64,000 bases of DNA from Eledone cirrhosa. Lineage: Eukaryota. The notes beneath the pieces were generated by a model. That model saw only the letters and a program-made list of their open reading frames with translations, was not told where the DNA came from and ran no database searches. This document shows, piece by piece, positions 2,965-64,000 of this stretch. The position numbers and the translations under genes were made by a program. Location: contig OZ024743.1 in the NCBI GenBank assembly GCA_964016885.1, positions 324,570,001 through 324,634,000 of the forward strand, given 5' to 3'. The first letter of the stretch is position 1. Every line of letters begins with the position of its first letter.

Positions 2965-3229
2965 CCCCCCTCCCACACACACATACACAGACTCACACAT
3001 ATATATGGAACTAGCTACTGAAACGGCAAGAGCTCAGCTGTAGGGCTCCTGACTCTTTATAATATAACCATACCCTACTACCCCAAATATCGAGTACTCT
3101 GTTGAAACCATCCTGATTTATATATATATATATATATGTTCAAAAGAAATTGTTTTGGTAAAAAGAGAAGCAAGCAAGAGAAAGCTCTCTACATTCGTAG
3201 TTTGTAGTTACAATAGAGATTCAGTATAA

Positions 3230-3496
3230 GAATAACATTAAGAAATATGCTGATGTTACATAAATCGTTTATTCATAATAATTATTTCAACGCAATTCAA
3301 GATGTAATTCAGATGAATTTCGATTTTGTGGTGTTTTTTCTGCCTGAGGCATATCACAAAATCGAATTTCATCTAAAGATACCGTTCTCATGACAACAAC
3401 AAATACATGAATTACATCTCGATTGCACGGAAGAACCCTTGAAATAATTATTATGAATAAACGATTTATGTAACATGACCATCTTTCATAATGTTA

Positions 3497-3499
<3 letters not shown>
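3230..3499. repeat. Inverted repeat with nested inner hairpin
   Basis: Arms 3230-3311 and 3408-3499 (ATGTTACATAAATCGTTTATTCATAATAATTATTTCAA and its reverse complement). Inner hairpin at 3311-3374. Confidence 0.8.
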
Positions 3500-3541
<42 letters not shown>

Positions 3542-3547
3542 CAACTA

Positions 3548-3835
3548 GTCATTGCTCTACATGGCTGAATACAATAAATGTAATCTGAGTTTTTCGAATA
3601 TTAATAACAATATTCGATTCGATTGCAATTATACAAACACCCTCTTTTATAAGCCATGTCAGTAGAATGAGCCCCTCATTCTCGCTTTTGTGTTGGCATG
3701 CAAACAGAACTGTAGACACTAATGTTTCTGGCTGATTACCCTTCATCAGTGAAGTTTACTGCCTACTTGCCAACTATCAGAGCTAGTGAAAATATATGAT
3801 ATTTTCTGAAATATACGGTGACTGATTGGCCTGAT
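3548..3835 (-). mobile_element. Diverged copy of the 438-bp HHR-containing repeat family, HHR at 3707-3757
   Basis: Reverse complement of ~18840-19120. Minus strand reads CUGAUGA-AGGGU...CCA-GAAA-CAUUAGUG-UC|UACAGUUC. Confidence 0.75.
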
Positions 3836-4263
3836 TTTTTTAAACAAAGGGGAAGGCGTAAGAAGGCATCTGACCTAAGGATGCACAGTCAGGCGGTAAA
3901 CTCCAGTTCAAAGAGATAAGAACAAAAAAATAGAAAAGAATATAATTTCAGCGTGTAAGGATCAAAGAAAGCAGTTAGAAAGTTTAAGTTAAACTTGCCT
4001 AATCTAACACTTGGTTAAAGAGCAAGGCATTTATATTTTAATACTAATTCAGGTCAGTTTGCCTTCTTCCCCCTTCCCCTTGAATTTCGGCCTGTTTAGC
4101 ACCCCCCAATCCCATCACTATGAAGGTATTTAACTATGTACACCACATCCCAGATCATTGACCACTCCCCGTGACAGACAATAAAAACAACAAACTTTTA
4201 GTATTTTTTGCTTAGATAGTTTTGCCTTATTTTGCTTTGACTGCCTGCCCATATGTGGACTGT

Positions 4264-4360
4264 ACCCCTTGATAAGTTCAGCTAGATTCCCGCTGTTCTA
4301 ATACTGGTGGCTTAGTTCGGATATAGTTGTCGAAACGGCGGGAGCTCAGCCGTCGGAGTC
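4264..4360 (+). ncRNA. Degenerate hammerhead motif with long stem II (GAAACGGC family)
   Basis: ACCCC-UUGAUAA-GuuCAGCUA...UAGUUGuC-GAAA-CGGC(gggagcuca)GCCG-UC|GGAGU. The core is decayed but stems I-III are recognisable. Confidence 0.5.
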
Positions 4361-4403
4361 ATGATTCTTTTCCTATATAAATATATATATATATATATAT
4401 ATA

Positions 4404-7119: not shown

Positions 7120-7162
7120 AATGTGTTGGTTGTAATATACTACACTTATACACACACACACA

Positions 7163-7196
<34 letters not shown>

Positions 7197-7218
7197 TGTG
7201 TGTGTGTGTATAAGTGTA

Positions 7219-7275
<57 letters not shown>

Positions 7276-7318
7276 TGTGTGTGTGTGTATAAGTGTAGTA
7301 TATTACAACCAACACATT
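7120..7318. repeat. Inverted repeat around (TA)n
   Basis: AATGTGTTGGTTGTAATATACTACACTTATACACAC... and its exact reverse complement ending at 7318, with an extra partial arm at ~7193-7221. Confidence 0.8.
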
Positions 7319-10852: not shown

Positions 10853-11672
10853 ATACTATAAAGTAAAGTATGTCCATAGAATTATTTGATAATATATATA
10901 CATCATTTCTTCTCCCAATTGGCATAATTAACCACACAAAAAACAATTAGACCAGGCTATGAGATTAAAAGGCACCTGTGAAGAAACAGTAAATAAATAT
11001 ACGATAGCAGCGTCTTCGCGGCCAACCGCTATAGAATATTTACCCAACATTTCAACAGCACGAGGAAATTAATTAAATATACGGTCAACCATACACAATT
11101 AGGTATAAAATTAAAGTTAGAAATGCTTATATACAAACCAGGATTAAATCACTAAATCCCGACTCATGGGGTTCGTTCTCATTTTGAGATATTCTATTAA
11201 GGATAAATCTCGAGTTTCGAACTCTTCAGGGACAAACTGGCTAGGACAGATTTTTTTCTGAAGTGGCCCCCGCCAAACACGAATTCAAAATGGCTGAGAA
11301 CTGTGACGTGGCAGTGGTCAAGTCAGAAAGAGTGTGATTGGTTGCTTACGGCGAGTGGGTTGGTTGCTAGAAAGCGCAGCCCAATATCGCCCAAATTGTA
11401 TCTCATTTCTAACTTTAATTTTATACCTAATTGTGTATGGTTGACCGTATATTTAATTAATTTCCATGTGCTGTTGAAATGTTGGGTAAATATTCTATAG
11501 CGGTTGGCCGCGAAGACGCTGCTATCGTATATTTATTTACTATTTCTTCACAGGTGCCTTTTAATCTCATAGCCTGGTCTAATTGTTTTTTGTGTGGTTA
11601 ATTATGCCAATTGGGAGAAGAAATGATGTATATATATATTATCAAATAATTCTATGCTTTACTTTATAGTAT
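10853..11672. mobile_element. Element with ~260-bp near-perfect inverted arms (foldback/MITE-like)
   Basis: 10853-11125 is the reverse complement of 11404-11672, with a ~280-bp unique spacer. Confidence 0.8.
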
Positions 11673-18792: not shown

Positions 18793-18915
18793 TGTAAACA
18801 GAACTGCAGACACTAATGCCAGTCTGCTAATGTACAAATCAAGCCGATCAGTCACTGTATATTTTAGAAAATAGCATATATTTTCACTAGCTCTGACAGT
18901 TGGCAGGTGAACAGT

Positions 18916-18965
18916 GAGCTGTACTGATGAAGGGTGATACCCAGAAATATTAGCGTCTGCAGTTC
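18916..18965 (+). ncRNA. Type I hammerhead ribozyme motif
   Basis: GAGCUGUA-CUGAUGA-A-GGGU(gau)ACCC-A-GAAA-UAUUAGCG-UC|UGCAGUUC, with an 8-bp stem I. Confidence 0.8.
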
Positions 18966-19353
18966 TGTTTACATGCCAACACAAGAGCAAGAATGAAGAG
19001 TTCATTCTACTGACATGGCTATAAAAATGAGGCTTGTTTGCGTAATTGCAAAGGAATCGAATGTTATTATTAATATTCGAAAAACTCAGATTACATTTAT
19101 TGTATTCAGTCATGTAGAACGAAAATTTTCTTTTTTATTTGAATTTGACAAAGCCGGCCATTTATCGCTCGTATACAGGAAACTGACTGGCCAGTCTGCT
19201 GATATGCAAATCTGGCTGATCAGTGGATCTGCTAATATGCAGATCTGACTGATCAGCCAGTCTGCTAATGTGCAAATCAAGCCAGTCAGTCACTGTATAT
19301 TTTAGAAAATAGCATATATTTTCACTAGCTCTGACAGTTGGCAGGTGAACAGT

Positions 19354-19403
19354 GAGCTGTACTGATGAAGGGTGATACCCAGAAATATTAGTGTCTGCAG
19401 TTC
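19354..19403 (+). ncRNA. Type I hammerhead ribozyme motif (second tandem copy)
   Basis: GAGCUGUA-CUGAUGA-A-GGGU(gau)ACCC-A-GAAA-UAUUAGUG-UC|UGCAGUUC. Confidence 0.8.
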
Positions 19404-19741
19404 TGTTTACATGCCAACACAAGAGCAAGAATGAAGAGTTCATTCTACTGACATGGCTATAAAAATGAGGCTTGTTTGCATGAGAGGTCCCTTTTGATAA
19501 AGCCATATAGTTGATAGCCTTCATTTTTTGCACAATGCAGCAACTGAGAAGAGCAAGTCGCTAATGCACCTACTTAATTCATTCTATGTTGTGGAAACCT
19601 TGGTCTGGGAAAATGTGCAATTTTACGCATTACAAATAACCTATGGTAAGATTCATGTGTTTAATACATTTAAATCTTGTCACATTGGATGAGTAATGAG
19701 ACAAACAGGGCGTAGAGAATACTCTACATAATCCTGTTTGA

Positions 19742-21535: not shown

Positions 21536-21865
21536 TTAACTCTTTTATTACCTTTACCCGTGGTATACAACCAGCTTTTTCCCGTTGAGGAAAGCGACTT
21601 TTTGTTTTCTATTGACTCCAAAGCAATGAAAGCCAATTAATTCGCTCCACTTTTGAGCCCATAATGTAGAGAGACGAAAGTAAACAACAGCGAGTATCAT
21701 ATAATTTATCTGTTGCTGGCGTTTAGTGTACGAAAGAAACTACCTGAGACACCACACTGCTTTCCTGAACTAAAATTATTTTAGAACATGTATAATTTAT
21801 AGTTTATATATATAACATTAATAATAATAACAGTGTTGTTATTAATGGATATAGACTTAACCAAA

Positions 21866-22002
21866 CTAACACATGTTTCAACCGATAGAGATTTATCCCG
21901 AGGATGTGAGAATATAAAATCAGAAATCTTAGAATTCTAAAATTTCGAATTTTATATTCTCACATCCTTGAATGAATCTCTATCGGTTGAAACATGTGTT
22001 AG
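21866..22002. repeat. ~55-bp-arm inverted repeat (hairpin)
   Basis: CTAACACATGTTTCAACCGATAGAGATT...GGATGTGAGAATATAAAAT versus ATTTTATATTCTCACATCC...AATCTCTATCGGTTGAAACATGTGTTAG. Confidence 0.85.
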
Positions 22003-22049
22003 ATTGACAGCATATCGACTCCTTGGTGTTTATTATTCTTTATACATAT

Positions 22050-22129
<80 letters not shown>

Positions 22130-22302
22130 ATAAGAATATTTATACTTATATATGTTTAATATACAATTATAAATATGGAGGGCAGTACTAAGTGCTAGCC
22201 GGTTACCGGTATGACAAAAGGCTCAATGCAAATTATCAAGTGTTTTACAGAGCCGAGATACAAAGTGTTAAAACAATCAAATCTTATTTTAATACATTTA
22301 TT

Positions 22303-22349
22303 TGCTGACAATTGTTTTTTCCAGAGGGAAGTCTGGAATCATCAGAGCA
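22303..22349 (-). ncRNA. Type I hammerhead motif, G12A lesion
   Basis: UGCU-CUGAUGA-UUCCAGA(cuuccc)UCUGGAA-AAAA-CAAUUG-UC|AGCA. Confidence 0.65.
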
Positions 22350-22657
22350 TAGGGGATGTCTAAACAGGTGATTAAAATCCTAGTCATTCAGAACATTTAG
22401 GTAGATACATAAGTGTTGTTAGTGTCATAGACATGATGTAGAGAATCAGGAGATAAAAGGGTGACTTTTTTACCTGTACCTTTTGCTTGTACCTCTTACC
22501 CTTTCAACCGGTGCTCCTTGTAATTGCATTCTCTCAAGCATAACATCTGTTTAACTTCTGATTCTCTACATGATATCTATGACATTAACAACACTTATAT
22601 ATCTAGCTAAATGTTCTGAATGACTAGGATTTTAATCACCTGTTTAGACATTCCCTA

Positions 22658-22704
22658 TGCTCCGATGATTCCAGACTTCCCTCTAGAAGAAACACTTGTC
22701 AGCA
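22658..22704 (+). ncRNA. Type I hammerhead motif, U4C variant
   Basis: UGCU-CCGAUGA-UUCCAGA(cuuccc)UCUAGAA-GAAA-CACUUG-UC|AGCA. Confidence 0.7.
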
Positions 22705-22741
22705 AATAAATGTATTAAAATAAGATTTGATTGCTTTAACG

Positions 22742-22806
<65 letters not shown>

Positions 22807-25801: not shown

Positions 25802-25871
<70 letters not shown>

Positions 25872-26491
25872 AAAAAGTATGACCCCGACGGCAGAGCCCA
25901 AGCCGTTTCGACGGCTATTTCTGTATACGTACACACACACACATATATATATATATGTGTGTAAGTGTATGTGTCAGTGTCTGTGTCTGCGTGTGCACCA
26001 GTCAGTGTGAGTGTGTGTGTACGTGAGTAGTTATGGAGCCAGTCAGTGTAAACTGCACACTTCATGCATTGTCTATTTAAAAACAAATAGAAAAAATGTT
26101 GAGAAAAAAAATAGAAAAAATAGAAAAACTGTTGAGAGTGTGTAAGAACAATTCGACAATGATATCTGTGTGACGACGTATCTGACGCCTTCTGTGAAAA
26201 TATTTATTACTCAAAATTGGATCATCAACGTAACAGTCTATATCTTGACTGTGGCAGACAACAATCTTCTCAAGTTGTTTACATTCTTACTTCAACCCTT
26301 TCCTTGTCATATTTCTAATGAGAGACATTGCCTAGAATGGTTTAAGTATTTTGAAAATAATGAGGACTTATGGAGGAATTCAGTAATATATTATAATTAG
26401 GATTATTGACTTAGTGTTTGGAACATAACTTAACAAATGTTCTTATATAAAATCGTGATGGAAGGTTTTTAGGTAAATATAAACTCTTTAA

Positions 26492-27677: not shown

Positions 27678-28926
<1,249 letters not shown>

Positions 28927-29094
28927 TTATTACTCCAAGTGTTTACAACATAGGAATTACAGCTTACCCGCAGCATCACTATGAAAACGACTTGTTGAGT
29001 CAAACCAAGCCAAGCGTTAATATCATCCACTACCTGGAATACCATAACTGGACTATACCTAAGTGGACTGTATTTAACTATTATTTGTTACCCC

Positions 29095-29147
<53 letters not shown>

Positions 29148-29152
<5 letters not shown>

Positions 29153-29720
29153 AACAATACAATATAATTACCTCATCACCAGAGGTTTCCCGAATAAGAC
29201 GAATACGAAAAACGTCCTCATTCGTTCGTCGGATAAGGCAATTTAAAACATAGTGAAATATTTGAAAAATCTCCTCAAGAAAGGCAAACATTTTAACGGG
29301 CAAAAAAATAAATAAATAAAAGTAATGCAAGAGATATATAAAAAAATAAGGAAATATAGTTAGGGTTTGTGTATAAATGTGTGTATATTCACTCACAAAT
29401 GTACATATGTGTGTATATACAAATGTAACTATATTTCCTTTTTTTTTTATATATATCTCTTGCATTACTTTTATTTATATTTTTTTTGCCCGTTAAAATT
29501 TTTGCCTTTCTTGAGATTTTTCAAATATTTCACTATGATTTCAATTGCCTTATCCGACGAACGAATGAGGACGTTTTTAGTATTCGTCTTATTCGGGAAA
29601 CCTCTGGTAATGAGGTAATTATATTGTATTGTTTATTATACATTAAATTTAGCTCTGGCACTTACATAGAGCACTCTTCACTCCTATGACTTTTTCAATT
29701 TTCAACGGAAACTTCAATAC
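29148..29720. mobile_element. Head-to-head inverted pLTR pair of the PLE family at 15585-18555
   Basis: The minus copy 29148-29415 and plus copy 29426-29720 match 18325-18555. Both HHR cores read CCGACGA. Confidence 0.85.
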
Positions 29721-29736
29721 TTTATATATATATATA

Positions 29737-29851
29737 TAGGAAAAAGTATGACCCCGACGGCAGAGCTCAAGCCGTTTCGACGGCTATTTCTGGACCAGAA
29801 ATAGCCGTCGAAACGGCTCGAGCTCTGCCGTCGGGGTCATACTTTTTCCTA
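29737..29851. repeat. 115-bp palindrome (57-bp arms, 1 mismatch, 1-nt centre) built from the 3' half of an HHR
   Basis: TAGGAAAAAGTATGACCCCGACGGCAGAGC...TCTGG-A-CCAGA...GCTCTGCCGTCGGGGTCATACTTTTTCCTA. Confidence 0.9.
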
Positions 29852-29921
29852 TTACCCACTCTACGTATTGAGTACTCTGGTGCGTTATGATCCATCTGGT
29901 TCCTTACCACAATTCCTTCGT

Positions 29922-30813: not shown

Positions 30814-31201
30814 GTGAATCACCCCCCGTCAGTTATGGCAGGGTTTACACAAAAACGTTCCTCACCAGGAGAAGTGTTTTTGTGGAATTCAATCCGTCGT
30901 CCATGCATGCCAGTCTCCCCTCTCTACGCCATCGATGTTGTCCAGAGGCCAATACAATTTGGTGCTCATTTTTCCAATGAATTGGAGTCAATGAGATGTA
31001 AAGTGTCTTTATTTTGCGGGATCTTCTGAAACTCGGAAGATCCCTTAAAAAGGTGAAAGCAGCGATTCTTTGCTTAAACCTTAATCTGTACAAGTAATAA
31101 ATACTTGCTCTACGGGTTTTATATATATATATTTTTTTATATAATCCAAATATTTGACCCCGACGGCAGAGCTCAAGCCGTTTCGACGGCTATTTCCGAA
31201 C

Positions 31202-31405
31202 TCATTCTTGCTCTTATGTTGGCATGCGAACAGTTCTGTTCGCATGCCAACATAAGAGCAAGAATGAAGTGTTCATTCTCCTAACATGTCTATAAAATTG
31301 AGGCTAGTTTGCAAAACTGCAAACGAATCGAATGTTATTATTAATATTCTAAAAACTCAGATTACATTTATCGTATTCAGCCATGTAGAGCGAAAGTTTT
31401 CTTTC
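31202..31405 (+). mobile_element. Truncated copy of the 438-bp HHR family with a perfect 5' fold-back (32-bp arms, TT loop)
   Basis: TCATTCTTGCTCTTATGTTGGCATGCGAACAG-TT-CTGTTCGCATGCCAACATAAGAGCAAGAATGA, then homology to ~18960-19135. Confidence 0.85.
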
Positions 31406-31859
31406 TTTATATATATATATATAGTTCAATGAAACGACAAAACAGAGGTACAAAAAGTCTTATTAGTTTCACGGTTTATATGGAATATATGTGTACATGC
31501 GTGTGTGTGTGTTCGGTTCAAAGAACATCTTGTAGTGAGCAAATTAGCAAAATAATAATAATAATGACAGGTAGAAATGGTGAGCAAATGGCTTGCGGCA
31601 CTGCAGAAAGGAAGCCTGTCCTAAAAGATAACTTCTGAAGAAAATATATCGTGAAATCATTTTACTGCAGACACACACCTACACAACACACGCACACATG
31701 CCCGCACACATAACACACACACGTGCACACACGCGCGCATATATACATATATATATACATATACACGCACACATAACACTCACAAGTACACACACATCCA
31801 GACACCTCCGCACCCACATGCCCCTACACCCCTGCGCCCACACACCCACACATCTACAC

Positions 31860-33878: not shown

Positions 33879-34565
33879 TGTATGTATGTATGTATGTATG
33901 TATGTATGTATGTATGTATGTATGTATATGTCAGGTCGCTCGCGAGTGCTACTGGTAATATGTAACCCAGTAGAACCTGTATCATGGTCGGGTCGTCGGT
34001 GACTAAACCGGCAAGTCCACCAAACTTGCTTGGTGGAGAGGGTGATATTTGAACACCCTGTGGAATGAAATGTAAGACCCGGTAAAGGGTGGAGGAACTC
34101 AGCAGAGTCAGCGGCCATCCAAATAGTAGTTTTTTTTTTATACGGAGAGGTTAAACTCCGAGACATAAAAAGCCGAAGGCTGTCGTATTTTCCGTGATAA
34201 ACATTTGCACCCAAGATATGTGTCGTCAGTTCCAAAAAGTGTGGTTGGTCCTATACAAGCCTGCACCACTTAAAACAAAACTTTGTGTGGGTAGTTCAAC
34301 ATCAGTTCACTTTCTCACATTTAACTTTTGTTGGACACTCATACGCCGGATATCGAGTCCACCATATGAGGAGATAAGGGAGCTTTTACATTATGTTAGT
34401 AAAATCGTATTTGTGGAATGATTATGTAAACATTAGGGATAGACAGCTTACCAAATATTTTTTTCTCAACGTGATTAATGGAATGTCTGATATAATATTT
34501 CAGATGTTAAATTCTCAAGTATGATACAAGTCCCATGAATTCGCGGAATAAATTAGTATAAATTA

Positions 34566-34924
34566 TTATATTAGGGAAAACGGGGAAGAATTGAGGAGAT
34601 ATTTGAAGAGAGATTTATTTGATTAAATAATCTAACACGTATTTAATCACCGGTTATAATTGCCTACGAGAGTTGAATAGTTATATTTTTTCTAGTCACT
34701 CACCCGTCATACGTCTATTATCGGTGAATCCTCAGAGAATAAAGGTTATTATTCTCTGAGAATAATAGACGTATTAGGAGTTAGTGAATAGAAAAAATAT
34801 ATAACTATCCAGCTCTCGTAGCCAATTATATAACCAGTGATTAAATACGTGTTATAATAATTATATAATCAAATAAATCTCTCTTCAAATTTCTCCTCAC
34901 TTGTTGCCTGTTTTCCTTAATATA
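34566..34924. repeat. Diverged inverted repeat with nested central hairpin
   Basis: Arms ~34566-34721 and ~34762-34924. Inner hairpin CTCAGAGAATAA-aggtta-TTATTCTCTGAG at 34731-34760. Confidence 0.8.
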
Positions 34925-34932
34925 ACAATAAT

Positions 34933-35113
34933 TTTTCTACTTTAGGCACAAGGCCATCAATTACCCCAGTACATTACTGGTACTTTATTTTATCGACCCC
35001 GTAAGGATGAAAGGCAAAGTTAACCTCGGCTGGATTTGAATTCAGAACGTAAAGGGCTATAACTCTATGCTGTAAAGCATGGTGTTTGACGCTCTACCGA
35101 TACTACCAATTCA
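34933..35113 (-). mobile_element. tRNA-derived SINE family A
   Basis: Matches the family consensus. Confidence 0.85.
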
Positions 35114-41250: not shown

Positions 41251-41287
<37 letters not shown>

Positions 41288-41585
41288 CAGAATTAGCCGT
41301 CGAAACGGCTTGAGCTCAGCTGTCGGGGTCTTACTGGTTCCTATATATATATATATATATACCAAGACACCAAAAATATTTTCGTCTCATATATATATAT
41401 ATATATATATATACCAAGGCACCAAAAATATTTTCGTCTATCTCACTTACATATCGATCTCCCTACCATAGTGACAGGCTTATAATACCGCTAGAAATAG
41501 CAGCCAAAAGATGGTCTGACACACCTCAACAAATCAGGAGCAGCTTATAAATACTTGAATATTAAGTAGTCTTAATTATTAAACA

Positions 41586-42014
41586 TCTCAATGAATTGAT
41601 AAAATATATAGACAAAATATCACTCGGAGAAGCAATATTGCATATTAAATTTAAGTGAACAAAAAAACAACTACCGTATTTATGGGAGTATAAGCCAGAC
41701 AGACCAAAACAATTTCTAGTCTATCTCATTTATATATCGATCTCCCTACCATGGTTTCATTTGAGGAAGAAGTAATTATTGGAAAAGACCATTATTTGAA
41801 GAATTCACAAATTCGTCAGGGGAGTATTCTTAAATTCAAAGAGACTATATATGAAACCATGGTAGGGGATCGATATATAAATGAGATAGACTAGAAATTG
41901 TTTTGGTCTGTCTGGCTTATACTCCCATAAATAGTTGTTTTTCACTTAAATTTAATATGTAATATTGCTTCTCTGAGTGATATTTTATCTAAATATTTTA
42001 TCCATTCATTGAGA
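41586..42014. repeat. Inverted repeat, ~170-bp arms
   Basis: 41586-41760 versus 41851-42014. Partial related copies occur at 41360-41470. Confidence 0.85.
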
Positions 42015-42030
42015 CTAATTAATAGCTAAT

Positions 42031-43359
<1,329 letters not shown>

Positions 43360-43433
43360 TAATGGTAGCTAAGATGCTTCCATAGGCGGTATGCCGGTTG
43401 AGCACTCTATGCTTCTACGGAGCAGAGTATTAT

Positions 43434-43732
43434 AGAATGGAAAACGAAAAATCAGTGATGCATCGGAACTCAATTTATTGTGTGTTACAATTGTTTTCCC
43501 GGCGAACAGCTCGAGGTGTGATGCATGTGTGGATCTACCTGACTCTAGACTCGCTGGTTCCTCGGACACGTCTATTGATTTCGGATCATATCCTCTTTCA
43601 GAAAGAGGATATGATCCGAGGAACCTGCGAGTCTAGAGTCAGGTAGATCGCACCTCGAGCTGTTCGCCGGGGAAACAATTGTAACACACAATAAATTGAG
43701 TTCCGATGCATCACTGATTTTTCGTTTTCCAT

Positions 43733-43735
<3 letters not shown>
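43434..43735. mobile_element. Inverted pair of HHR modules with a perfect central hairpin
   Basis: Arms 43434-43566 and 43615-43735. Centre TCGGATCATATCCTCTTTC-A-GAAAGAGGATATGATCCGA. HHR reads GUGU-CCGAGGA-A-CC.GCGAG...UUCGCCGG-G-GAAA-CAAUUG-UA|ACAC (the left copy has G12A; the right copy lacks the 5' strand of stem I). Confidence 0.8.
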
Positions 43736-43781
<46 letters not shown>

Positions 43782-50759: not shown

Positions 50760-53700
50760 CCACCACTGGTACTACCAATACCACTAGTACTACCACCACT
50801 ACCAATACCACAAGTACTACCACCACTACCAATACCACGAGTACTACCACCACTACTAATATCACAAGTACTACCAGCACTACCAATATCACAAGTACTA
50901 CCACCACTACCAATACCACAAGTACTACCAACACTACAAATACCACAAGTACTACCAGCACTACCAATATCACAAGTACTACCACCACTACCAATACCAG
51001 AAGTAATTTCACCAATACCAATGCCACAAGTACTACCACCACTACCAGTACCACAAGTACTACCACCACTAACAATACCACGAGTACTACCACCACTACT
51101 AATATCACAAGTACTACCACCACTACCAATACCACAAGTACTACCAACACTACAAATACCACAAGTACTACCAGCACTACCAATATCACAAGTACTACCA
51201 CCACTACCAATACCACGAGTACTACCACCACTACTAATATCACAAGTACTACCACCACTACCAATACCACAAGTACTACCAACACTACAAATACCACAAG
51301 TACTACCACCACTACCAATATCACAAGTACTACCACCACTACCAATGCCACAAGTACTATCACCACTACCAATGCCACAAGTACTATCACCACTACCAAT
51401 GCCACAAGTACTATCACCACTACCAATGCCACAAGTACTACCACCACTACCAGTACCACAAGTACTACCACCACTACCAATACCACAAGTACTACCACCA
51501 CTACCAATACCAGAAGTACTATCACCAATACCAATGCCACAAGTACTACCACCACTACCAGTACCACAAGTACTACCACCACTAACAATACCACAAGTAC
51601 TACAACCACTACCAATATCACAAGTACTACCACCACTACCAATACCACTAGTACTACCACCACTACCAATACCACTAGAACTACCACCCACTACCAATAT
51701 CACAAGTACTACCACCACTACCAATACCACAAGTACTACCACCACTACCAATACAACAAGTAGTCCCACCACTACCAATACCACAAGTACTACCACCACT
51801 ACCAATACCACAAGTACTACCACCACTACCAATACCACAAGTACTACCACCACTACCAATACCACAAGTACTACCACCACTACTAATATCACAAGTACTA
51901 CCACCACTACCAATACCACAAGTACTACCACCACTACCAATACCACAAGTACTACCACCACTACCAATACCACAAGTACTATCACCACTACCAATGCCAC
52001 AAGTACTACCACCACTACCAGTACCACAAGTACTACCACCACTACCAATAACAAAAGTACCACCAACACTACCAATACCACAAGCACTACCACCACTAAC
52101 AATACCACAAGTACTACCACCACTACCAGTATCACAAGTACCACCACCACTACCAATACCACAAGTACTACCACCACTACCAATATCACAAGTACTACGA
52201 CCAGTACTAATACCACTAGTACTACCACCACTACCAATACCACAAGTACAACCACCACTAACAATACCACAAGTACTACCACCACTACCAATACCACAAG
52301 TACTACTACCACTACCAATACCACAAGTACTACCACCACTACCAATACCACAAGTACTACCACCACTACCAATACCACAAGTACTACCACCACTACCAAT
52401 AACAAAAGTACCACCAACACTACCAATACCACAAGCACTACCACCACTACCAATACCACAAGTACTACCACCACTACCAGTATCACAAGTACCACCACCA
52501 CTACCAATACCACAAGTACTACCACCACTACCAATATCACAAGTACTACGACCAGTACTAATACCACTAGTACTACCACCACTACCAATACCACAAGTAC
52601 AACCACCACTAACAATACCACAAGTACTACCACCACTACCAATACCACAAGTACTACTACCACTACCAATACCACAAGTACTACCACCACTACCAATACC
52701 ACAAGTACTACCACCACTACCAATACCACAAGTACTACTACCACTACCAATACCACAAGTACTACCACCACTACCAATACCACAAGTACTACCACCACTA
52801 CCAATACCACTAGTACTACGACCACTACCAATACCACAAGTACTACCACCACTACCAATACCACAAGTCCTACCACCACTACCAATACCACAAGTACTAC
52901 CACCACTACCAATACCATTACCAATACAACAAGTACTACCACCACTAACAATACCACAAGTACTACCACCACTACCAATACCACAAGTACTACCACCACT
53001 ACCAATACCACAAGTACTACCACCACTACCAATACCACTAGTACTACCACCACTACCAATACCACAAGTACTACCACCACTACCAATACCACAAGTACTA
53101 CCACCACTACCAATACCACAAGTACTACCACCACTACCAATACCACAAGTACTACCACCACTACTAATATCACAAGTACTACCACCACTACCAATACCGC
53201 AAGTACTACCACCACTACCAATATCACAAGTACTACCACCACTACCAATACCACAAGTACTACCACCACTACTAATATCACAAGTACTACCACCACTACC
53301 AATACCACAAGTACTACCACCACTACCAATACCACAAGTACTACCACCACTACCAATACCACAAGTACTATCACCACTAACAATACCACAAGTACTACCA
53401 CCACTACTAATATCACAAGTACTACCACCACTACAATACCACAAGTACTATCACCACTACCAATGCCACAAGTACTACCACCACTACCAGTACCACAAGT
53501 ACTACCACCACTACCAATACCACAAGTACTACCACCACTACCAAAACCACAAGTACTATCACCACTACCAATACCACAAGTACTACCACCACTACCAAAA
53601 CCACAAGTACTACCACCACTACCAATACCACAAGTACTACCACCACTACCAGTACCACAAGTACTACAACCACTACCAATATCACAAGTACTACCAACAC

Positions 53701-56700
53701 TACCAATACCACAAGTTCTACCACCACTACCAATACAACAAGTACTACCACCACTACCAATATCACAAGTACTACCACCACTACCAATACCACTACCAAT
53801 ACCACAAGTACTACCACCACTACCAATACCATAAGTACTACCACCACTACCAATATCACAAGTACTACCACCACTACCAATACCACTACCAATACCACAA
53901 GTACTACCACCACTACCAATACCATAAGTACTACCACCACTACCAATACCACTAGTACTACCACCACTACCAATACCACTAGTACTACCACCCACTACCA
54001 ATACCACAAGTACTACCACCACTACCAATACCACAAGTACTACCACCACTACCAATACCACAAGTAGTCCCACCACTACCAATACCACAAGTATTACCAC
54101 CAATACCAATACCACTAGTACTACCACCACTACCAATACCACAAGTACTACCACCACTACCAATACCACAAGTACTACCACCACTACCAATACCACATGT
54201 ACTACCACCACTACTAATATCACATGTACTACCACCACTACCAATACCACAAGTACTACCACCACTACAAATATCACAAGTACTACCACCACTACCAATA
54301 CCACAAGTACTACCAGCACTACCAATACCACAAGTACTACCACCACTACTAATATCACATGTACTACCACCACTACTAATATCACATGTACTACCACCAC
54401 TACCAATACCACAAGTACTACCACCAATACCAATACCACTAGTACTACCACCACTACCAATACCACAAGTACTACCACCACTACAAATATCACAAGTACT
54501 ACCACCACTACCAATACCACAAGTACTACCACCACTACTAATATCACATGTACTACCACCACTACCAATACCACAAGTACTACCACCACTACAAATATCA
54601 CAAGTACTATCACCACTACCAATGCCACAAGTACTACCACCACTACCAGTACCACAAGTACTACCACTACTACCAATACCACAAGTACTACCACCACTAC
54701 CAATACCACAAGTACTACCACCACTACCAATATCACAAGTACTACCACCACTACCAGTACCACTAGTACTACCACCACTACCAATACCATAAGTACTACC
54801 ACCACTACCAATACCACTAGTACTACCACCACTACCAATACCACTAGTACTACCACCCACTACCAATATCACAAGTACTACCACCACTACCAATACCACA
54901 ATTACTACCACCACTACTAATATCACAAGTACTACCACCACTACCAATATCACAAGTACTACCACCACTACCAATACCACTAGTACTACCACCACTACCA
55001 ATATCACAAGTACTACCACCACTACCAATACCACAAGTACTACCACCACTACCAATACCACTAGTACTACCACCCACTACCAATATCACAAGTACTACCA
55101 CCACTACCAATACCACAAGTACTACCACCACTACCAATACAACAAGTACTGCCACCACTACCAATACCACTAGTACTACCACCCACTACCAATACCACAA
55201 GTACTACCACCACTACCAATACCACTAGTACTACCACCCACTACCAATACCACAAGTACTACCACCACTACCAAAACCACAAGTACTACCACCACTACCA
55301 ATACCACAAGTACTACCACCACTACCAATACCACTAGTACTACCACCCACTACCAATATCACAAGTACTACCACCACTACAAATACCACAAGTACTACCA
55401 CCACTACCAATACCACAAGTACTCCCACCACTACTAATATCACAAGTACTACCACCACTACCAATACCACAAGTACTACCACCACTACCAATACCACAAG
55501 TACTATCACCACTACCAATGCCACAAGTACTACCACTACTACCAGTACCACAAGTACTACCACTACTACCAGTACCACAAGTACTACCACCACTACCAAT
55601 AATACAAGTACTACCACCACTACCAATACCACAAGTACTACCACCACTACCAATACCACAAGTACTACCAGCACTACCAATATCACAAGTACTACGACCA
55701 GTACTAATACCACTAGTACTACCACCACTACCAATACCACAAGTACAACCACCACTAACAATACCACAAGTACTACCACCACTACCAATACCACTAGTAC
55801 TACCACCACTACCAATACCACTAGTACTACCACCACAACCAATACCACAAGTACTACCACCATAACCAATACCACAAGTACTAACACCACTACCAATATC
55901 ACAAGTACTACCACCACTACCAATACCACTAGTACTACCACCACTACCAATACCACTAGTACTACCACCAATACCAATAACACAAGTACTATCACCACTA
56001 CCAATGCCACAAGTACTAGCACCACTACCAGTACCACAAGTACTACCACCACTAACAATACCACAAGTACTACAACCACTACCAATATCACAAGTACTAC
56101 CAACACTACCAATACCACAAGTACTACCACCACTACCAATACCACAAGTACTACCACCACTACCCATATCACAAGTACTACCAGCACTACCAATATCACA
56201 AGTACTAACACCACTACCAATACCATTACCAATACCACAAGTACCACCACCACTACCAATACCATAAGTACTACCACAACTACCAATACCACTAGTACTA
56301 CCACCACTACCAATACCACTAGTACTATCACCCACTACCAATATCACAAGTACTACCACCACTACCAATACCACAAGTACTACCACCAATACCAATACCA
56401 CAAGTAGTCCCACCACTACCAATACGACAAGTACTACCACCACTACCAATACCACTAGTACTACCACAACTACCAATACCACAAGTACTACCACCACTAC
56501 CAATACCACAAGTACTACCACCACTACCTATACCACAAGTAATACCACCACTACCAATACCACAAGTACTACCACCACTACTAATATCACAAGTACTACC
56601 ACCACTACAAATACCACAAGTACTACCACCACTACAATACCACAAGTACTATCACCACTACCAATGCCACAAGTACTACCACCACTACCAGTACCACAAG

Positions 56701-59700
56701 TACTACCACCACTACCAATACCACAAGTACTACCACCACTACCAAAACCACAAGTACTATCACCACTACCAATACCACAAGTACTACCACCACTACCAAA
56801 ACCACAAGTTCTACCACCACTACCAATACCACAAGTACTACCACCACTACCAGTACCACAAGTACTACCACCACTACCAATACCACAAGTACTACAACCA
56901 CTACCAATACCACAAGTACTACCACCACTACCAATACCACAAGTACTACAACCACTACCAATACCACAAGTACTACCACCACTACCAATACCACAAGTAA
57001 TACCACCACTACCAATAGCACAAGTACTACCACCACTACCAGTACCACAAGTACTACCACCACTACCAATACCACAAGTACTACAACCACTACCAAAACC
57101 ACAAGTTCTACCACCACTACCAATACCACAAGTACTACCACCACTACCAGTACCACAAGTACTACCACCACTACCAAAACCACAAGTACTACCACCACTA
57201 CCAATACCACAAGTACTACAACCACTACCAATATCACAAGTACTACCAACACTACCAATACCACAAGTTCTACCACCACTACCAATACCACAAGTACTAC
57301 CACCACTACCAATATCACAAGTACTACCACCACTACCAATACCACTACCAATACCACAAGTACTACCACCACTACCAATATCACAAGTTCTACCACCACT
57401 ACCAATACCACAAGTACTACCACCACTACCAATATCACAAGTACTACCACCACTACCAATACCACTACCAATACCACTAGTACTACCACCCACTACCAAT
57501 ACCACAAGTACTACCACCACTACCAATACCACTAGTACTACCACCCACTACCAATACCACAAGTACTACCACCACTACCAAAACCACAAGTACTACCACC
57601 ACTACCAATACCACAAGTACTACCACCACTACCAATACCACAAGTACTACCCCCACTACCAATACCACAAGTACTACCACCACTACCAATACCACTAGTA
57701 CTACCACCCACTACCAATATCACAAGTACTACCACCACTACAAATACCACAAGTACTACCACCACTACCAATACCACAAGTACTCCCACCACTACTAATA
57801 TCACAAGTACTACCACCACTACCAATACCACAAGTACTACCACCACTACCAATACCACAAGTACTATCACCACTACCAATGCCACAAGTACTACCACTAC
57901 TACCAGTACCACAAGTACTACCACCACTACCAGTACCACAAGTACTACCACCACTACCAATAATACAAGTACTACCACCACTACCAATACCACAAGTACT
58001 ACCACCACTACCAATACCACAAGTACTACCAGCACTACCAATATCACAAGTACTACGACCAGTACTAATACCACTAGTACTACCACCACTACCAATACCA
58101 CAAGTACAACCACCACTAACAATACCACAAGTACTACCACCACTACCAATACCACTAGTACTACCACCACTACCAATACCACTAGTACTACCACCACAAC
58201 CAATACCACAAGTACTACCACCATAACCAATACCACAAGTACTACCACCACTACCAATATCACAAGTACTACCACCACTACCAATACCACTAGTACTACC
58301 ACCACTACCAATACCACTAGTACTACCACCAATACCAATACCACAAGTACTATCACCACTACCAATGCCACAAGTACTACCACCACTACCAGTACCACAA
58401 GTACTACCACCACTAACAATACCACAAGTACTACAACCACTACCAATATCACAAGTACTACCAACACTACCAATACCACAAGTACTACCACCACTACCAA
58501 TACCACAAGTACTACCACCACTACCCATATCACAAGTACTACCAGCACTACCAATATCACAAGTACTAACACCACTACCAATACCATTACCAATACCACA
58601 AGTACCACCACCACTACCAATACCATAAGTACTACCACAACTACCAATACCACTAGTACTACCACCACTACCAATACCACTAGTACTATCACCCACTACC
58701 AATATCACAAGTACTACCACCACTACCAATACCACAAGTACTACCACCAATACCAATACCACAAGTAGTCCCACCACTACCAATACGACAAGTACTACCA
58801 CCACTACCAATACCACTAGTACTACCACAACTACCAATACCACAAGTACTACCACCACTACCAATACCACAAGTACTACCACCACTACCTATACCACAAG
58901 TAATACCACCACTACCAATACCACAAGTACTACCACCACTACTAATATCACAAGTACTACCACCACTACAAATACCACAAGTACTACCACCACTACAATA
59001 CCACAAGTACTACCACCACTACCAAAACCACATGTACTATCACCACTACCAATACCACAAGTACTACCACCACTACCAAAACCACAAGTTCTACCACCAC
59101 TACCAATACCACAAGTACTACCACCACTACCAGTACCACAAGTACTACCACCACTACCAATACCACAAGTACTACAACCACTACCAATACCACAAGTACT
59201 ACCACCACTACCAATACCACAAGTACTACAACCACTACCAATACCACAAGTACTACCACCACTACCAATACCACAAGTAATACCACCACTACCAATACCA
59301 CAAGTACTACCACCACTACCAGTACCACAAGTACTACCACCACTACCAATACCACAAGTACTACAACCACTACCAAAACCACAAGTTCTACCACCACTAC
59401 CAATACCACAAGTACTACCACCACTACCAGTACCACAAGTACTACCACCACTACCAAAACCACAAGTACTACCACCACTACCAATACCACAAGTACTACA
59501 ACCACTACCAATATCACAAGTACTACCAACACTTCCAATACCACAAGTTCTACCACCACTACCAATACCACAAGTACTACCACCACTACCAATATCACAA
59601 GTACTACCACCACTACCAATACCACAAGTAATACCACCACTACCAATACCACAAGTACTACCACCACTACCAGTACCACAAGTACTACCACCACTACCAA

Positions 59701-62700
59701 TACCACAAGTACTACAACCACTACCAAAACCACAAGTTCTACCACCACTACCAATACCACAAGTACTACCACCACTACCAGTACCACAAGTACTACCACC
59801 ACTACCAAAACCACAAGTACTACCACCACTACCAATACCACAAGTACTACAACCACTACCAATATCACAAGTACTACCAACACTACCAATACCACAAGTT
59901 CTACCACCACTACCAATACCACAAGTACTACCACCACTACCAATATCACAAGTACTACCACCACTACCAATACCACTACCAATACCACAAGTACTACCAC
60001 CACTACCAATATCACAAGTTCTACCACCACTACCAATACCACAAGTACTACCACCACTACCAATATCACAAGTACTACCACCACTACCAATACCACTACC
60101 AATACCACAAGTACTACCACCACTACCAATGCCACAAGTACTACCACCACTACCAGTACCACAAGTACTACCACCACTACCAATAACAAAAGTATCACCA
60201 CCACTAACAATACCACAAGTACTACCACCACTACCAATACCACAAGTACTATCACCACTACCAATGCCACAAGTACTATCACCACTAACAATACCACAAG
60301 TACTACCACCACTACCAATACCACAAGTACTACCACCACTACCAATACCACAAGTACTACCACCACTACCAATACCACAAGTACTACCACCACTACCAAT
60401 ACCACAAGTACTACCACCACTACCAATACCACAACTACTACCACCACTACCAAAACCACAAGTACTACCACCACTACCAATACCACAAGTACTACCAGCA
60501 CTACCAATACCACAAGTACTACCACCACTATCAATACCACAAGTACTACCACCACTACCAATACCACAAGTACTACCACCACTACCAATACCACAAGTAC
60601 TACCACCACTACCAATACCACAAGTACTACCACCACTACCAATATCACAAGTACTACCACCACTACCAATACCACAAGTACTACCACCACTACCAATACC
60701 ACAAGTACTACCACCACAAACAATACCACAAGTACTACAACCACTACCAATATCACAAGTACTACCAACACTACCAATACCACAAGTTCTACCACCACTA
60801 CCAATACCACAAGTACTACCACCACTACCAATATCACAAGTACTACCACCACTACCAATACCACTACCAATACCACAAGTACTACCACCACAAACAATAC
60901 CACAAGTACTACAACCACTACCAATATCACAAGTACTACCACCACTACCAATACCACTAGTACTACCACCACTACCAATACCACTAGTACTACCACCCAC
61001 TACCAATATCACAAGTACTACCACCACTACCAATACCACAAGTACTACCACCACTACCCATACCACAAGTAGTCCCACCACTACCAATACCACAAGTATT
61101 ACCACCAATACCAATACCACTAGTGCTACCACCACTACCAATACCACAAGTACTAGCACCACTACCAATATCACAAGTACTACCACCACTACCAATACCA
61201 CTACCAATACCACAAGTACTACCACCACTACCAATACCATAAGTACTACCACCACTACCAATACCACTAGTACTACCACCACTACCAATACCACTAGTAC
61301 TACCACCCACTACCAATATCACAAGTACTACCACCACTACCAATACCACAAGTACTACCACCACTACCCATACCACAAGTAGTCCCACCACTACCAATAC
61401 CACAAGTATTACCACCAATACCAATACCACTAGTGCTACCACCACTACCAATACCACAAGTACTACCACCACTACCAATACCACAAGTACTACCACCAAT
61501 ACCACAAGTACTACCACCACTACTAATATCACAAGTACTACCACCACTACCAATGCCACAAGTACTACCACCACTACCAGTACCACAAGTACTACCACCA
61601 CTACCAGTACCACAAGTACTACCACCACTACCAGTACCACTAGTACTACCACCCACTACCAATACCACAAGTACTACCACCACTACCAATAACAAAAGTA
61701 CCACCACCACTAACAATACCACAAATACTACCACCACTAACAATACCACAAGTACTATCACCACTACCAATGCCATAAGTACTACCACCACTACCAGTAC
61801 CACAAGTACTACCACCACTACCAATAGCACAAGTACTACCACCACTACCAATACCAGAAGTACTATCACCAATACCAATGCCACAAGTACTACCACCACT
61901 ACCAGTACCACAAGTACTACCACCACTAACAATACCACAAGTACTACAACCACTACCAATATCACAAGTACTACAAACACTACCAATATCACAAGTACTA
62001 CCACCACTACCAATACCACAAGTACTACCACCACTACCAATACCACAAGTACTACCACCACTACCAATACCATAAGTACTACCACCACTACCGATACCAC
62101 TAGTACTACCACCACTACCAATACCACTAGTACTACCACCCACTACCAATATCACAAGTACTACCACCACTACCAATACCACAAGTACTACCACCACTAC
62201 CAATACAAGAAGTAGTCCCACCACTACCAATACCACAAGTACTACCACCACTACCAATACCACAAATACTACCACCACTACCAATACCACAAGTACTACC
62301 ACCACTACTAATATCACAAGTACTACCACCACTACCAATACCACAAGTACTACCACCACTACCAATACCACAAGTACTACCACCACTACTAATATCACAA
62401 GTGCTACCACCACTACCAATACCACAAGTACTACCACCACTACCAGTACCACAAGTACTACCACCACTACCAATACCACAAGTACTATCACCACTACCAA
62501 TGCCACAAGTACTACCACTACTACCAGTACCACAAGTACTACCACCACTACCAATACCACTAGTACTACCACCACTACCAATATCACAAGTACTACCACC
62601 ACTAACAATACCACAAGTACTACCACCACTACCAATAATACAAGTACTACCACCACTACCAATACCACAAGTACTACCACCACTACCAGTATCACAAGTA

Positions 62701-64000
62701 ACACCACCACTACCAATACCACAAGTACTACCACCACTACCAATATCACAAGTACTACCACCACTACCAATACAATTACCAATACCACAAGTACCACCAC
62801 CACTACCAATACCATAAGTACTACCACAACTACCAATACCACTAGTACTACCACCACTACCAATACCACTAGTACTATCACCCACTACCAATATCACAAG
62901 TACTACCACCACTACCAATACCACAAGTACTACCACCAATACCAATACCACAAGTAGTCCCACCACTACCAATACGACAAGTACTACCACCACTACCAAT
63001 ACCACTAGTTCTACCACCACTACCAATACCACAAGTACTACCACCACTACCAATACCACAAGTACTACCACCACTACCTATATCACAAGTAATACCACCA
63101 CTACCAATACCACAAGTACTACCACCACTACTAATATCACAAGTACTACCACCACTACCAATACCATAAGTACTACCACCACTACCGATACCACTAGTAC
63201 TACCACCACTACCAATACCACTAGTACTACCACCCACTACCAATATCACAAGTACTACCACCACTACCAATACCACAAGTACTACCACCACTACCAATAC
63301 AACAAGTAGTCCCACCACTACCAATACCACAAGTACTACCACCACTACCAATACCACAAGTACTACCACCACTACAATACCACAAGTACTACCACCGCTA
63401 CCAATGCCACAAGTACTACCACCACTACCAGTACCACAAGTACTACCACCACTACCAAAACCACAAGTACTACCACCACTACCAATACCACAAGTACTAC
63501 CACCACTACCAATACCACAAGTACTACCACCACTACCAATACCAGAAGTACTACCACCACTACCAATACCACTAGTACTACCACCACTACCAGTACCACA
63601 AGTACTACCACCACTAACAATACCACAAGTACTACAACCACTACCAATATCACAAGTACTACCAACACTACCAATACCACAAGTTCTACCACCACTACCA
63701 ATACCACAAGTACTACCACCACTACCAATACCACAAGTACTACCACCACTACCAATACCACAAGTACTACCACCACTACCAATATCACAAGTACTACCAC
63801 CACTACCAATACCACAAGTACTACCAACACTACAAATATCACAAGTACTACCACCACTACCAATACCACAAGTACTACCAGCACTACCAATATCACAAGT
63901 ACTGCCACAAATATCAATACCACAAGTACTACCACCACTACCAATACCACAAGTACTATCACCACTACCAATGCCACAAGTACTACCACCACTACCAGTA
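50760..64000. repeat. 27-bp satellite array (consensus ACCACAAGTACTACCACCACTACCAAT), >13 kb, with higher-order structure
   Basis: Roughly 490 monomers. Variant blocks recur at a 2361-bp offset (for example 55518/57879, 56004/58365, 56328/58689). The array continues past the window end. Confidence 0.97.

What the first reader, a model, noticed from the sequence alone, without database searches (positions are those of the whole stretch)
31202..31405. Copy starts at the predicted ribozyme cut and is capped by a perfect fold-back
Seen: homology to the 438-bp family begins at CAGTTCTGTT (31231), 2 nt downstream of the predicted GUC|UGCAGUUC cleavage. It is preceded by a perfect 32-bp inverted copy with a 2-nt loop. 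Inference: a genomic fossil of a self-cleaved RNA that was reverse-transcribed to its 5' end, after which the cDNA snapped back (CAG-tt-CTG) and self-primed. This would be indirect in vivo evidence of ribozyme activity and hairpin-primed second-strand synthesis.
Basis: partly seen in the sequence, partly recalled or inferred. Interest (0 to 1): 0.75.

Follow-up and report, generated by a model that had tools for sequence, protein, structure and literature searches.

The report
Penelope-type insert ending near ribozyme cut
This is one of thousands of copies of a small non-coding repeat with a predicted self-cutting RNA fold, likely pasted in by a Penelope-type jumping-gene enzyme; its short mirror-image cap is a likely repair patch of a known kind, but across the genome copies begin about four times more often just downstream of the predicted cut than just upstream, which may record the ribozyme working in the animal.

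Summary
The palindrome is real (32-bp arms, TT loop), and the copy starts 2 nt after a predicted type I hammerhead cut. The locus is a chimera in a (TA)n site. Its left end is a complete short copy of a second repeat family (B), its right end is the 438-bp family (A), and the 32-bp inverted patch bridges them. Head-to-head layout is the family norm (63 of 90 loci), and 44 of 63 pair a long with a short 3' end, the known Penelope 'tail' signature of two primings. The second test fails: near-symmetric joins are no commoner there (22 of 65 against 5 of 16), and many need two RNA-primed cDNAs. Snap-back is the likelier source of this patch (~0.6), as end repair rather than second-strand priming. 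Cleavage is unproven: stem II base is A·A, Rfam finds nothing, and most copies read through. The scan noted similar cases on other DNA.

The parts
31231..31410 (+). Family A sense arm, u143-u321: 5' end 2 nt after the predicted cut, 3' end at the long ('tailed') end
   Evidence: BLAST to window 18960-19138; alignment to the family majority shows the first 49 nt identical and 10 or so differences beyond; 3' end histogram
31202..31233 (-). 32-bp inverted copy of u148-u179 (patch); its outer end is neither of the family's two usual 3' ends
31234..31235 (.). TT loop of the natural CAG-TT-CTG micro-palindrome (u143-u150)
31140..31203 (-). Family B short arm, from B's fixed 5' end to its short 3' end; 2-nt microhomology with the patch at 31202-31203
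   Evidence: 64 of 94 B copies match at least 13 of the 16-nt leader
31120..31139 (.). Left (TA)n / T-rich target tract
   Evidence: sequence
31409..31423 (.). Right (TA)n target tract
   Evidence: sequence
18818..19480 (+). Partial-tandem reference copy of family A (period 438) with two hammerhead-like cores; predicted cuts after 18957 and 19395
18924..18957 (+). Predicted type I hammerhead core (CUGAUGA, stem II, GAAA, 3-bp stem III, GUC); A·A at the base of stem II
   Evidence: no Rfam hammerhead hit
3523..3837 (-). Third family A copy in the window, reading through the hammerhead

Best explanation
This is likely a single Penelope-type insertion in which both ends of a cut (TA)n site primed reverse transcription on different small non-coding RNAs, and the 32-bp mirror copy is likely a short snap-back patch that joined the two cDNAs. 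Shown: the layout B arm / patch / A arm, the two fixed 3' ends of family A, and the genome-wide step in 5' ends at the predicted cut. Inferred: the left DNA end copied a family-B RNA to its fixed 5' end; the right end copied family-A RNA from u321 to about u143. The A cDNA likely stopped because the template had been cut by its hammerhead and lost a few bases (about 0.5 for this copy). Its 3' CTG likely folded onto CAG, was extended about 32 nt and annealed by 2 nt to the B cDNA end (about 0.6). Two-ended Penelope-type priming as the frame: about 0.9.
For: 63 of 90 loci picked only by a 3' motif are head-to-head; 44 of 63 pair a long 3' end (u300-329) with a short one (u275-293). This matches the two RT start sites and extension of both DNA strands reported for a Poseidon element (PMC11167929). 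Estimated 5'-end rates per nt: u132-140 0.38%, u141-148 1.71%, u149-158 1.42%, u159-164 0.46%, u165-180 0.49%. The step holds without near-symmetric joins (43 against 11). A second hairpin of similar energy (-47.2 against -48.3 kcal/mol) shows no pile-up: 5 of 1952 against 25 of 1952. Subfamily variants in stem I keep pairing, and core columns vary less than the others (4.7 against 8.6%; 154 rows). The patch has a 3-nt fold, a 2-nt rejoin and a non-canonical outer end. In L260/L261 (one duplicated event) a 34-nt patch at u141 carries the adjacent arm's variants (4 shared, 0 different) and not those of the arm it joins. Family B shows that run-off at a fixed 5' end gives near-perfect palindromes with long and short ends.
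Against: No cleavage assay. The base of stem II is A·A in 141 of 154 copies, Rfam has no hammerhead hit, and the hammerhead fold is 8.9 kcal/mol above the minimum-energy fold. 2228 exact copies read through the cut against 61 hits for a start at u141, of which 24 of 30 viewed were true starts. In the 90-locus sample alone the contrast with u119-138 is weak (25 of 1952 against 11 of 1596, p=0.09) and with u159-178 also (p=0.06). A second pile-up of similar height at u308-320 (8 of 486) has no ribozyme. The patch has no private variant, so its donor cannot be read. Short non-canonical arms are not more symmetric than others (10 of 30 against 40 of 146). No autonomous partner was linked to family A.
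Confidence: 0.55

Rival explanations
1. The two-ended insertion is as above, but the patch came from an RNA template: the RT that finished the B RNA jumped by 2-nt microhomology onto family-A RNA at u179, copied about 30 nt, and the two cDNAs annealed at CAG/CTG. No snap-back.
For: Gives the identical sequence. The same junction in L257 needs two RNA-primed cDNAs. Near-symmetric joins at the cut split 19 long-first, 18 short-first, 4 equal. 'Extra template' junctions are a described class for R2 protein (PMC11331408, passages).
Against: RNA-primed A arms nearly always begin at u283-288 or u305-321; u179 is not such a site. The patch starts exactly at a micro-palindrome at the neighbouring cDNA end.
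Confidence: 0.25
2. The ribozyme does not cut. The pile-up of 5' ends reflects the RT stalling at the folded three-way junction and at the top of the long stem I, whose boundary coincides with the scissile bond by construction.
For: Non-canonical stem II base and no Rfam hit. Highest density at u146-148, the internal loop, not at u141. For Poseidon, cleavage was not needed in vitro and no reads began or ended at the cut (PMC11167929).
Against: The entry to stem I (u159-180) is at baseline, and an equally stable hairpin elsewhere gives no pile-up. By eye, 16 of the first 50 of 79 short-centre head-to-head sites have an arm starting exactly at u141 and 1 passes upstream.
Confidence: 0.3
3. One reading: hairpin self-priming at the cleaved end is how the second strand, and the inverted arm in general, is made.
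For: Near-symmetric joins exceed independence about twofold (14 of 64 against 6.3 expected, p=0.003) and arms share variants (379 against 148 expected). Self-priming was proposed from such palindromes in 2013 (PMC3846280, passages).
Against: Variant sharing is the same in asymmetric joins and at all distances from the centre. The short-ended arm reaches further 5' in 29 of 47 loci. No enrichment at the cut. Here the patch is 32 nt of a 180-nt arm.
Confidence: 0.08
4. An ordinary A/A head-to-head insert whose left arm was later shortened when a single B arm inserted with a deletion; or a local assembly error.
For: B is very abundant and inserts near other repeats. The arms are identical, and no read evidence spans the site.
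Against: B is usually two-armed (61 of 94 have an inverted partner); here it supplies exactly the missing short-ended arm. The junction type recurs with diverged arms elsewhere.
Confidence: 0.15

Closest known systems
Metazoan non-LTR retrozymes (Cervera and de la Pena 2020, PMC7229834, passages; Li, Clavereau and Pollet 2026, bioRxiv 10.64898/2026.07.22.740005, part 1 of 5)
   Same: Short non-coding tandem unit with a type I hammerhead-like core, thousands of copies, low GC, proposed Penelope mobilisation.
   Different: 438-nt unit is above the 170-400 nt quoted; copies are mostly 0.3-1.7 units in head-to-head inserts, not long arrays; A·A at the base of stem II; no RNA data here.
Endonuclease-bearing Penelope-like elements (Craig et al. 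2021, PMC8557442, passages; Frangieh et al. 2024, PMC11167929, parts 1-2 of 4; Arkhipova et al. 2013, PMC3846280, passages)
   Same: Inverted 5'-truncated copy, 30-40 nt tail on one end, partial tandems, (TA)n targets, palindromes at the inverted junction.
   Different: No coding region; partner enzyme not identified; 5' ends step up at the predicted cut, whereas Frangieh et al. saw no RNA ends there; this locus pairs two different families.
Ribozyme-defined 5' junctions of R2 (PMC3774820, search listing; PMC11331408, passages) and Perere-3 (PMC8501958, abstract)
   Same: Genomic 5' ends mark a ribozyme cut; 'snap-back' and 'extra template' junctions occur at low frequency with R2 protein.
   Different: HDV-like or twister ribozymes in LINE-type elements, where the cut defines the element's 5' end; here it is an internal site that most copies read through.
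Fold-back templated inverted duplications at DNA breaks (PMC11724301, abstract)
   Same: 5-34 bp inverted duplication next to a DNA end, primed by microhomology and captured by end joining.
   Different: Yeast nuclease breaks, not retroelement cDNA ends; the enzyme here is unknown.

Membership tests
Type I hammerhead ribozyme | CUGANGA and GAAA core with NUH cut triplet | tested here: met
   Seen directly; core columns 4.7% non-majority against 8.6% for the rest in 154 rows
Type I hammerhead ribozyme | Three stems, open stem I, pairing kept across variants | tested here: met
   Stem I pairs 84-95%, stem II 81-92%, stem III 93-95%; subfamily variants are wobble or compensatory. Related copies, so not independent covariation.
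Type I hammerhead ribozyme | Base pair 10.1-11.1 closing stem II next to G12 | tested here: not met
   A·A in 141 of 154 rows. A U-U mismatch there is reported as tolerated (PMC3088659, passages); nothing seen on A·A.
Type I hammerhead ribozyme | Match to an Rfam hammerhead model | tested here: not met
   0 hits at gathering score in the window; none among 10 hits at E<=10 on 18800-19500
Type I hammerhead ribozyme | Self-cleavage | not testable with these tools
   Only indirect: step in 5' ends
Non-LTR retrozyme | Tandem non-coding unit with a type I core in at least two consecutive units | tested here: met
   Window 18818-19480 holds two cores 438 nt apart; unit too short to encode an RT
Non-LTR retrozyme | Expressed as linear and circular monomers | not testable with these tools
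   No usable RNA data (see Tried and rejected)
Penelope-mobilised insertion | Inverted 5'-truncated partner copy | tested here: met
   63 of 90 loci
Penelope-mobilised insertion | 30-40 nt tail on one end (two RT start sites) | tested here: met
   3' ends cluster at u283/288 and u305-321; 44 of 63 long plus short
Penelope-mobilised insertion | AT-rich or (TA)n target | tested here: met
   Seen in the flanks printed and at this locus; not counted
Penelope-mobilised insertion | Autonomous RT plus GIY-YIG element sharing the terminal repeat | tested here: inconclusive
   No shared extension in held loci. Of 8 flanking frames scanned, 2 hit RVT_1 (1 above cut-off) and 1 GIY-YIG; none tied to family A.
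Fold-back templated insertion | Short, adjacent, inverted, microhomology at fold and rejoin | tested here: met
   32 bp, 3-nt fold, 2-nt rejoin
Fold-back templated insertion | Donor shown to be the adjacent strand | tested here: inconclusive
   Both arms equal the family majority, 0 private variants; shown only for L260/L261

The most novel reading that the evidence does not exclude
The family's 5' ends are a genome-wide fossil record of a Penelope-type hammerhead cutting in vivo despite an A·A stem II base: roughly one template in six or seven is cut and runs off. The second pile-up at u307-324, where both long- and short-primed arms stop after one lap, records copying of the religated circle by an enzyme that primes both DNA ends and can pair two unrelated passenger RNAs in one insertion.
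Probability: 0.3. Interest if true: 0.65.

Novelty: new member of a known kind. Interest (0 to 1): 0.4.

Why it matters
The role of hammerheads in Penelope-like elements is called unclear (PMC8557442) and lacking in vivo evidence (PMC4209133), and the one in vitro study found cleavage dispensable and no RNA ends at the cut (PMC11167929). A counted step in genomic 5' ends gives a cheap, general assay for in vivo cutting that can be run on any such family. My six literature searches showed no such breakpoint count for a Penelope hammerhead; they cover open-access papers only. The single locus and its palindrome are a known kind of by-product and add little by themselves.

Tried and rejected
Rfam scans found no hammerhead. 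RNA expression: no RNA holder listed; this is no evidence either way. Laying contigs of four runs on the locus gave no listed piece across the palindrome, with most pieces not shown: no verdict on assembly. Search for the autonomous partner in held flanks gave no linked frame. Arm identity as a test of fold-back failed, because sharing is the same in symmetric and asymmetric joins and at all distances. A test that short non-canonical arms are more symmetric was negative. A recurring A/B chimeric subfamily was not found: 1 of 305 loci and no other full-length hit among 40 scored candidates. My first idea that family B holds a whole hammerhead was dropped: B starts at a fixed point with no CUGANGA upstream. 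Natural stem I with the core deleted was rejected as the source of the palindrome, because the left arm matches the inverted right arm, not u70-96. The pattern did not exclude the consensus base at u148, so its 26 rows starting at u148 were dropped, as were 6 deletion rows. Earlier-finding look-ups by place and by sequence returned nothing. No supplementary files were read.

Full report
Observation. The window has perfect inverted arms at 31202-31233 and 31236-31267 around TT. From 31231 to 31410 it matches u143-u321 of a 438-bp unit, numbered from window 18818. The unit carries CUGAUGA, a short stem II, GAAA, a 3-bp stem III and GUC, with the predicted cut after u140. The copy therefore starts 2 nt downstream, or up to 5 nt if the shared CAG is given to the other arm. 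The host is an animal genome of 3.0 Gb. It looks like an octopus; that label is my recollection and was not tested.

What the locus is. Left of the palindrome lies a second repeat, family B, on the minus strand. B is a unit of roughly 150 nt with a fixed 5' end (64 of 94 copies match at least 13 of a 16-nt leader; 61 of 94 have an inverted partner) and its own short and long 3' ends. The finding holds B from that 5' end to the short 3' end, joined to the inverted A piece by 2 shared bases. The block B arm / 32-bp patch / A arm sits between (TA)n tracts. It was the only such A/B junction in 305 loci.

The family norm. A 29-nt motif near the 3' end has 2314 exact hits. I took 90 loci covering 96 of the first 100 listed places, all on the first 110 Mb of one contig and biased to young copies. 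63 of 90 are head-to-head, and 44 of 63 pair a long 3' end with a short one; 3' ends cluster at u283/288 and u305-321. This is the Penelope inverted copy and tail (PMC8557442, passages), which Frangieh et al. tie to two RT start sites and extension of both target strands (PMC11167929, parts 1-2 of 4). The two arms share variants more than random pairs (379 against 148 expected), equally in symmetric and asymmetric joins and at all distances from the centre. They likely come from the same RNA or source gene.

Test 1, 5' ends against the cut. A pattern that catches breaks in u132-u148 gave 465 hits. All of the first 100 were classed by script: 14 read-throughs with small changes, 5 internal deletions, 81 breaks. 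Of these, 16 fall in the 9 nt upstream and 65 in the 8 nt downstream (p about 1e-9); without near-symmetric joins, 11 and 43. One of the 65 (L375) looks like a further deletion, and three sites are counted on both strands. Counts by position run 9, 5, 7, 4, 5, 11, 11, 13 for u141-148, so this is a step with a plateau. Two more patterns (343 and 417 hits; first 100 rows tallied by eye, first 30 of each checked by script) give estimated rates per nt of 0.38% (u132-140), 1.71% (u141-148), 1.42% (u149-158), 0.46% (u159-164) and 0.49% (u165-180). Denominators are scaled from the 90-locus sample and are rough. In that sample u139-158 has 25 breaks in 1952 positions against 135 in 32180 elsewhere; the window was chosen, and the contrast with u119-138 is only p=0.09. 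By my arithmetic the excess is 13-20% of cDNAs reaching u158. Most copies read through: 2228 exact read-throughs against 61 hits for a start at u141, 24 of 30 viewed being true starts.

Cleavage or stalling. The entry to the long stem I is at baseline, and a second hairpin of equal energy has 5 breaks in 1952 positions. Both favour run-off from a free end with some trimming. Against this, the cut and the top of stem I are the same position in any hammerhead, the densest positions are u146-148, stem II starts with A·A in 141 of 154 rows, Rfam sees no hammerhead, the hammerhead fold is not the minimum-energy fold, and a pile-up of similar height at u308-320 needs no ribozyme. I put cleavage at about 0.65-0.7 for the excess, and about 0.5 for this copy.

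Test 2, fold-backs at the cut. Near-symmetric partners make up 22 of 65 breaks downstream and 5 of 16 upstream; with a tighter window, 16 of 51 against 14 of 81 (p=0.09). Such joins are about twice as common as independent pairing predicts across the unit (14 of 64 against 6.3). Among 41 near-symmetric joins at the cut with one long and one short end, the long-ended arm starts first in 19, the short-ended in 18, and 4 are equal. A single folded cDNA cannot give the 18. L257 has the finding's exact junction and is one that needs two cDNAs. Family B makes near-perfect palindromes simply by both arms ending at its fixed 5' end. A palindromic centre is therefore no proof of self-priming.

This locus. 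The left cDNA is B, so the inverted A piece cannot be the ordinary second arm, and it ends at u179, not at a start site. It has the anatomy of a fold-back patch: 3-nt fold, 32 nt, 2-nt rejoin, as described for DNA breaks in yeast (PMC11724301, abstract) and as a minor junction class with R2 protein (PMC11331408, passages). L260/L261, one duplicated event, shows a 34-nt patch at u141 with the adjacent arm's variants, so the process occurs in this family. Here the patch has no private variant, and an RT jump to A RNA gives the same letters. I put snap-back at about 0.6, as end repair, not second-strand synthesis.

Known and new. The family works like a non-LTR retrozyme riding on Penelope machinery (PMC7229834, passages; bioRxiv 10.64898/2026.07.22.740005, part 1 of 5). 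I do not file the motif as a proven hammerhead, because the 10.1-11.1 pair and the Rfam test fail. Palindromes at Penelope inverted junctions and a self-priming reading date from 2013 (PMC3846280, passages). Ribozyme-marked 5' junctions are known for R2 (PMC3774820, listing) and Perere-3 (PMC8501958, abstract). What is modestly new is the counted step at a Penelope-type hammerhead, where in vivo evidence was said to be absent (PMC4209133, passages). Six searches showed no such count; supplements were not read, and those of the preprint could bear on this. The scan's own notes report similar cases in other genomes and one in this genome; they are unchecked and not counted as support. Interest 0.4.

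Noticed in passing
family A u307-u324; e.g. L012, L024, L040, L076, L080, L116, L118, L216, L250: Second pile-up of 5' ends (8 of 486 positions in the 90-locus sample). Most of these arms are 400-438 nt long, and both long- and short-primed arms stop here. Could mark the RNA start, a U-tract drop-off, or one lap on a circular template.
   Followed up: partly
family B: window 31140-31203, 29721-29852, 25844-25921, 41284-41361, 4314-4397; L307-L325: Very abundant mini-element of about 150 nt with a fixed 5' end, a tail of about 75 nt and only the 3' half of a hammerhead-like motif. An extra G precedes the 5' end in 20 of 43 best-matching copies, possibly a copied cap; the set is biased by the query. 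A few copies (L010, L073, L106, L313) share upstream sequence that may be the parent promoter.
   Followed up: partly
family A u249-u266; e.g. L037, L084, L101, L110, L256: A tRNA-like SINE of about 185 bp sits at one site in many copies, with fixed 3' and variable 5' junction, usually in one arm only (19 long only, 14 short only, 5 both, 90 neither of 128). Suggests an insertion hot spot.
   Followed up: partly
L213, L218, L335, L336, L354: Internal deletions that remove part of the hammerhead core and rejoin at u133-146; may be RT jumps onto the still-paired upstream fragment.
   Followed up: no
90-locus sample: The short-ended arm reaches further 5' than the long-ended arm in 29 of 47 loci against 15, which may reflect the order of the two primings.
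   Followed up: no
window 3225-3504, 7120-7318, 10853-11672, 21862-22006, 22258-22749, 27707-28927, 29143-29643, 34549-34944, 41577-42024, 43431-43738: About ten other long fold-back elements, many with a (TA)n tract at one end; likely further Penelope-type families.
   Followed up: no
window 50771-63997: 13-kb array of a 27-bp unit, about 488 copies, strongly strand-skewed; may encode a Thr/Pro-rich mucin-like repeat (not tested).
   Followed up: no
family A u198-u368: The family majority has a short open frame of about 56 codons running across both 3' end sites (read by eye); may be a relic of a parent element's start or chance.
   Followed up: no
L050:563-1141, L053:2059-2811, L252:466-1371: Flanking fragments with GIY-YIG and RT matches, showing retroelement machinery nearby but not tied to family A.
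   Followed up: partly
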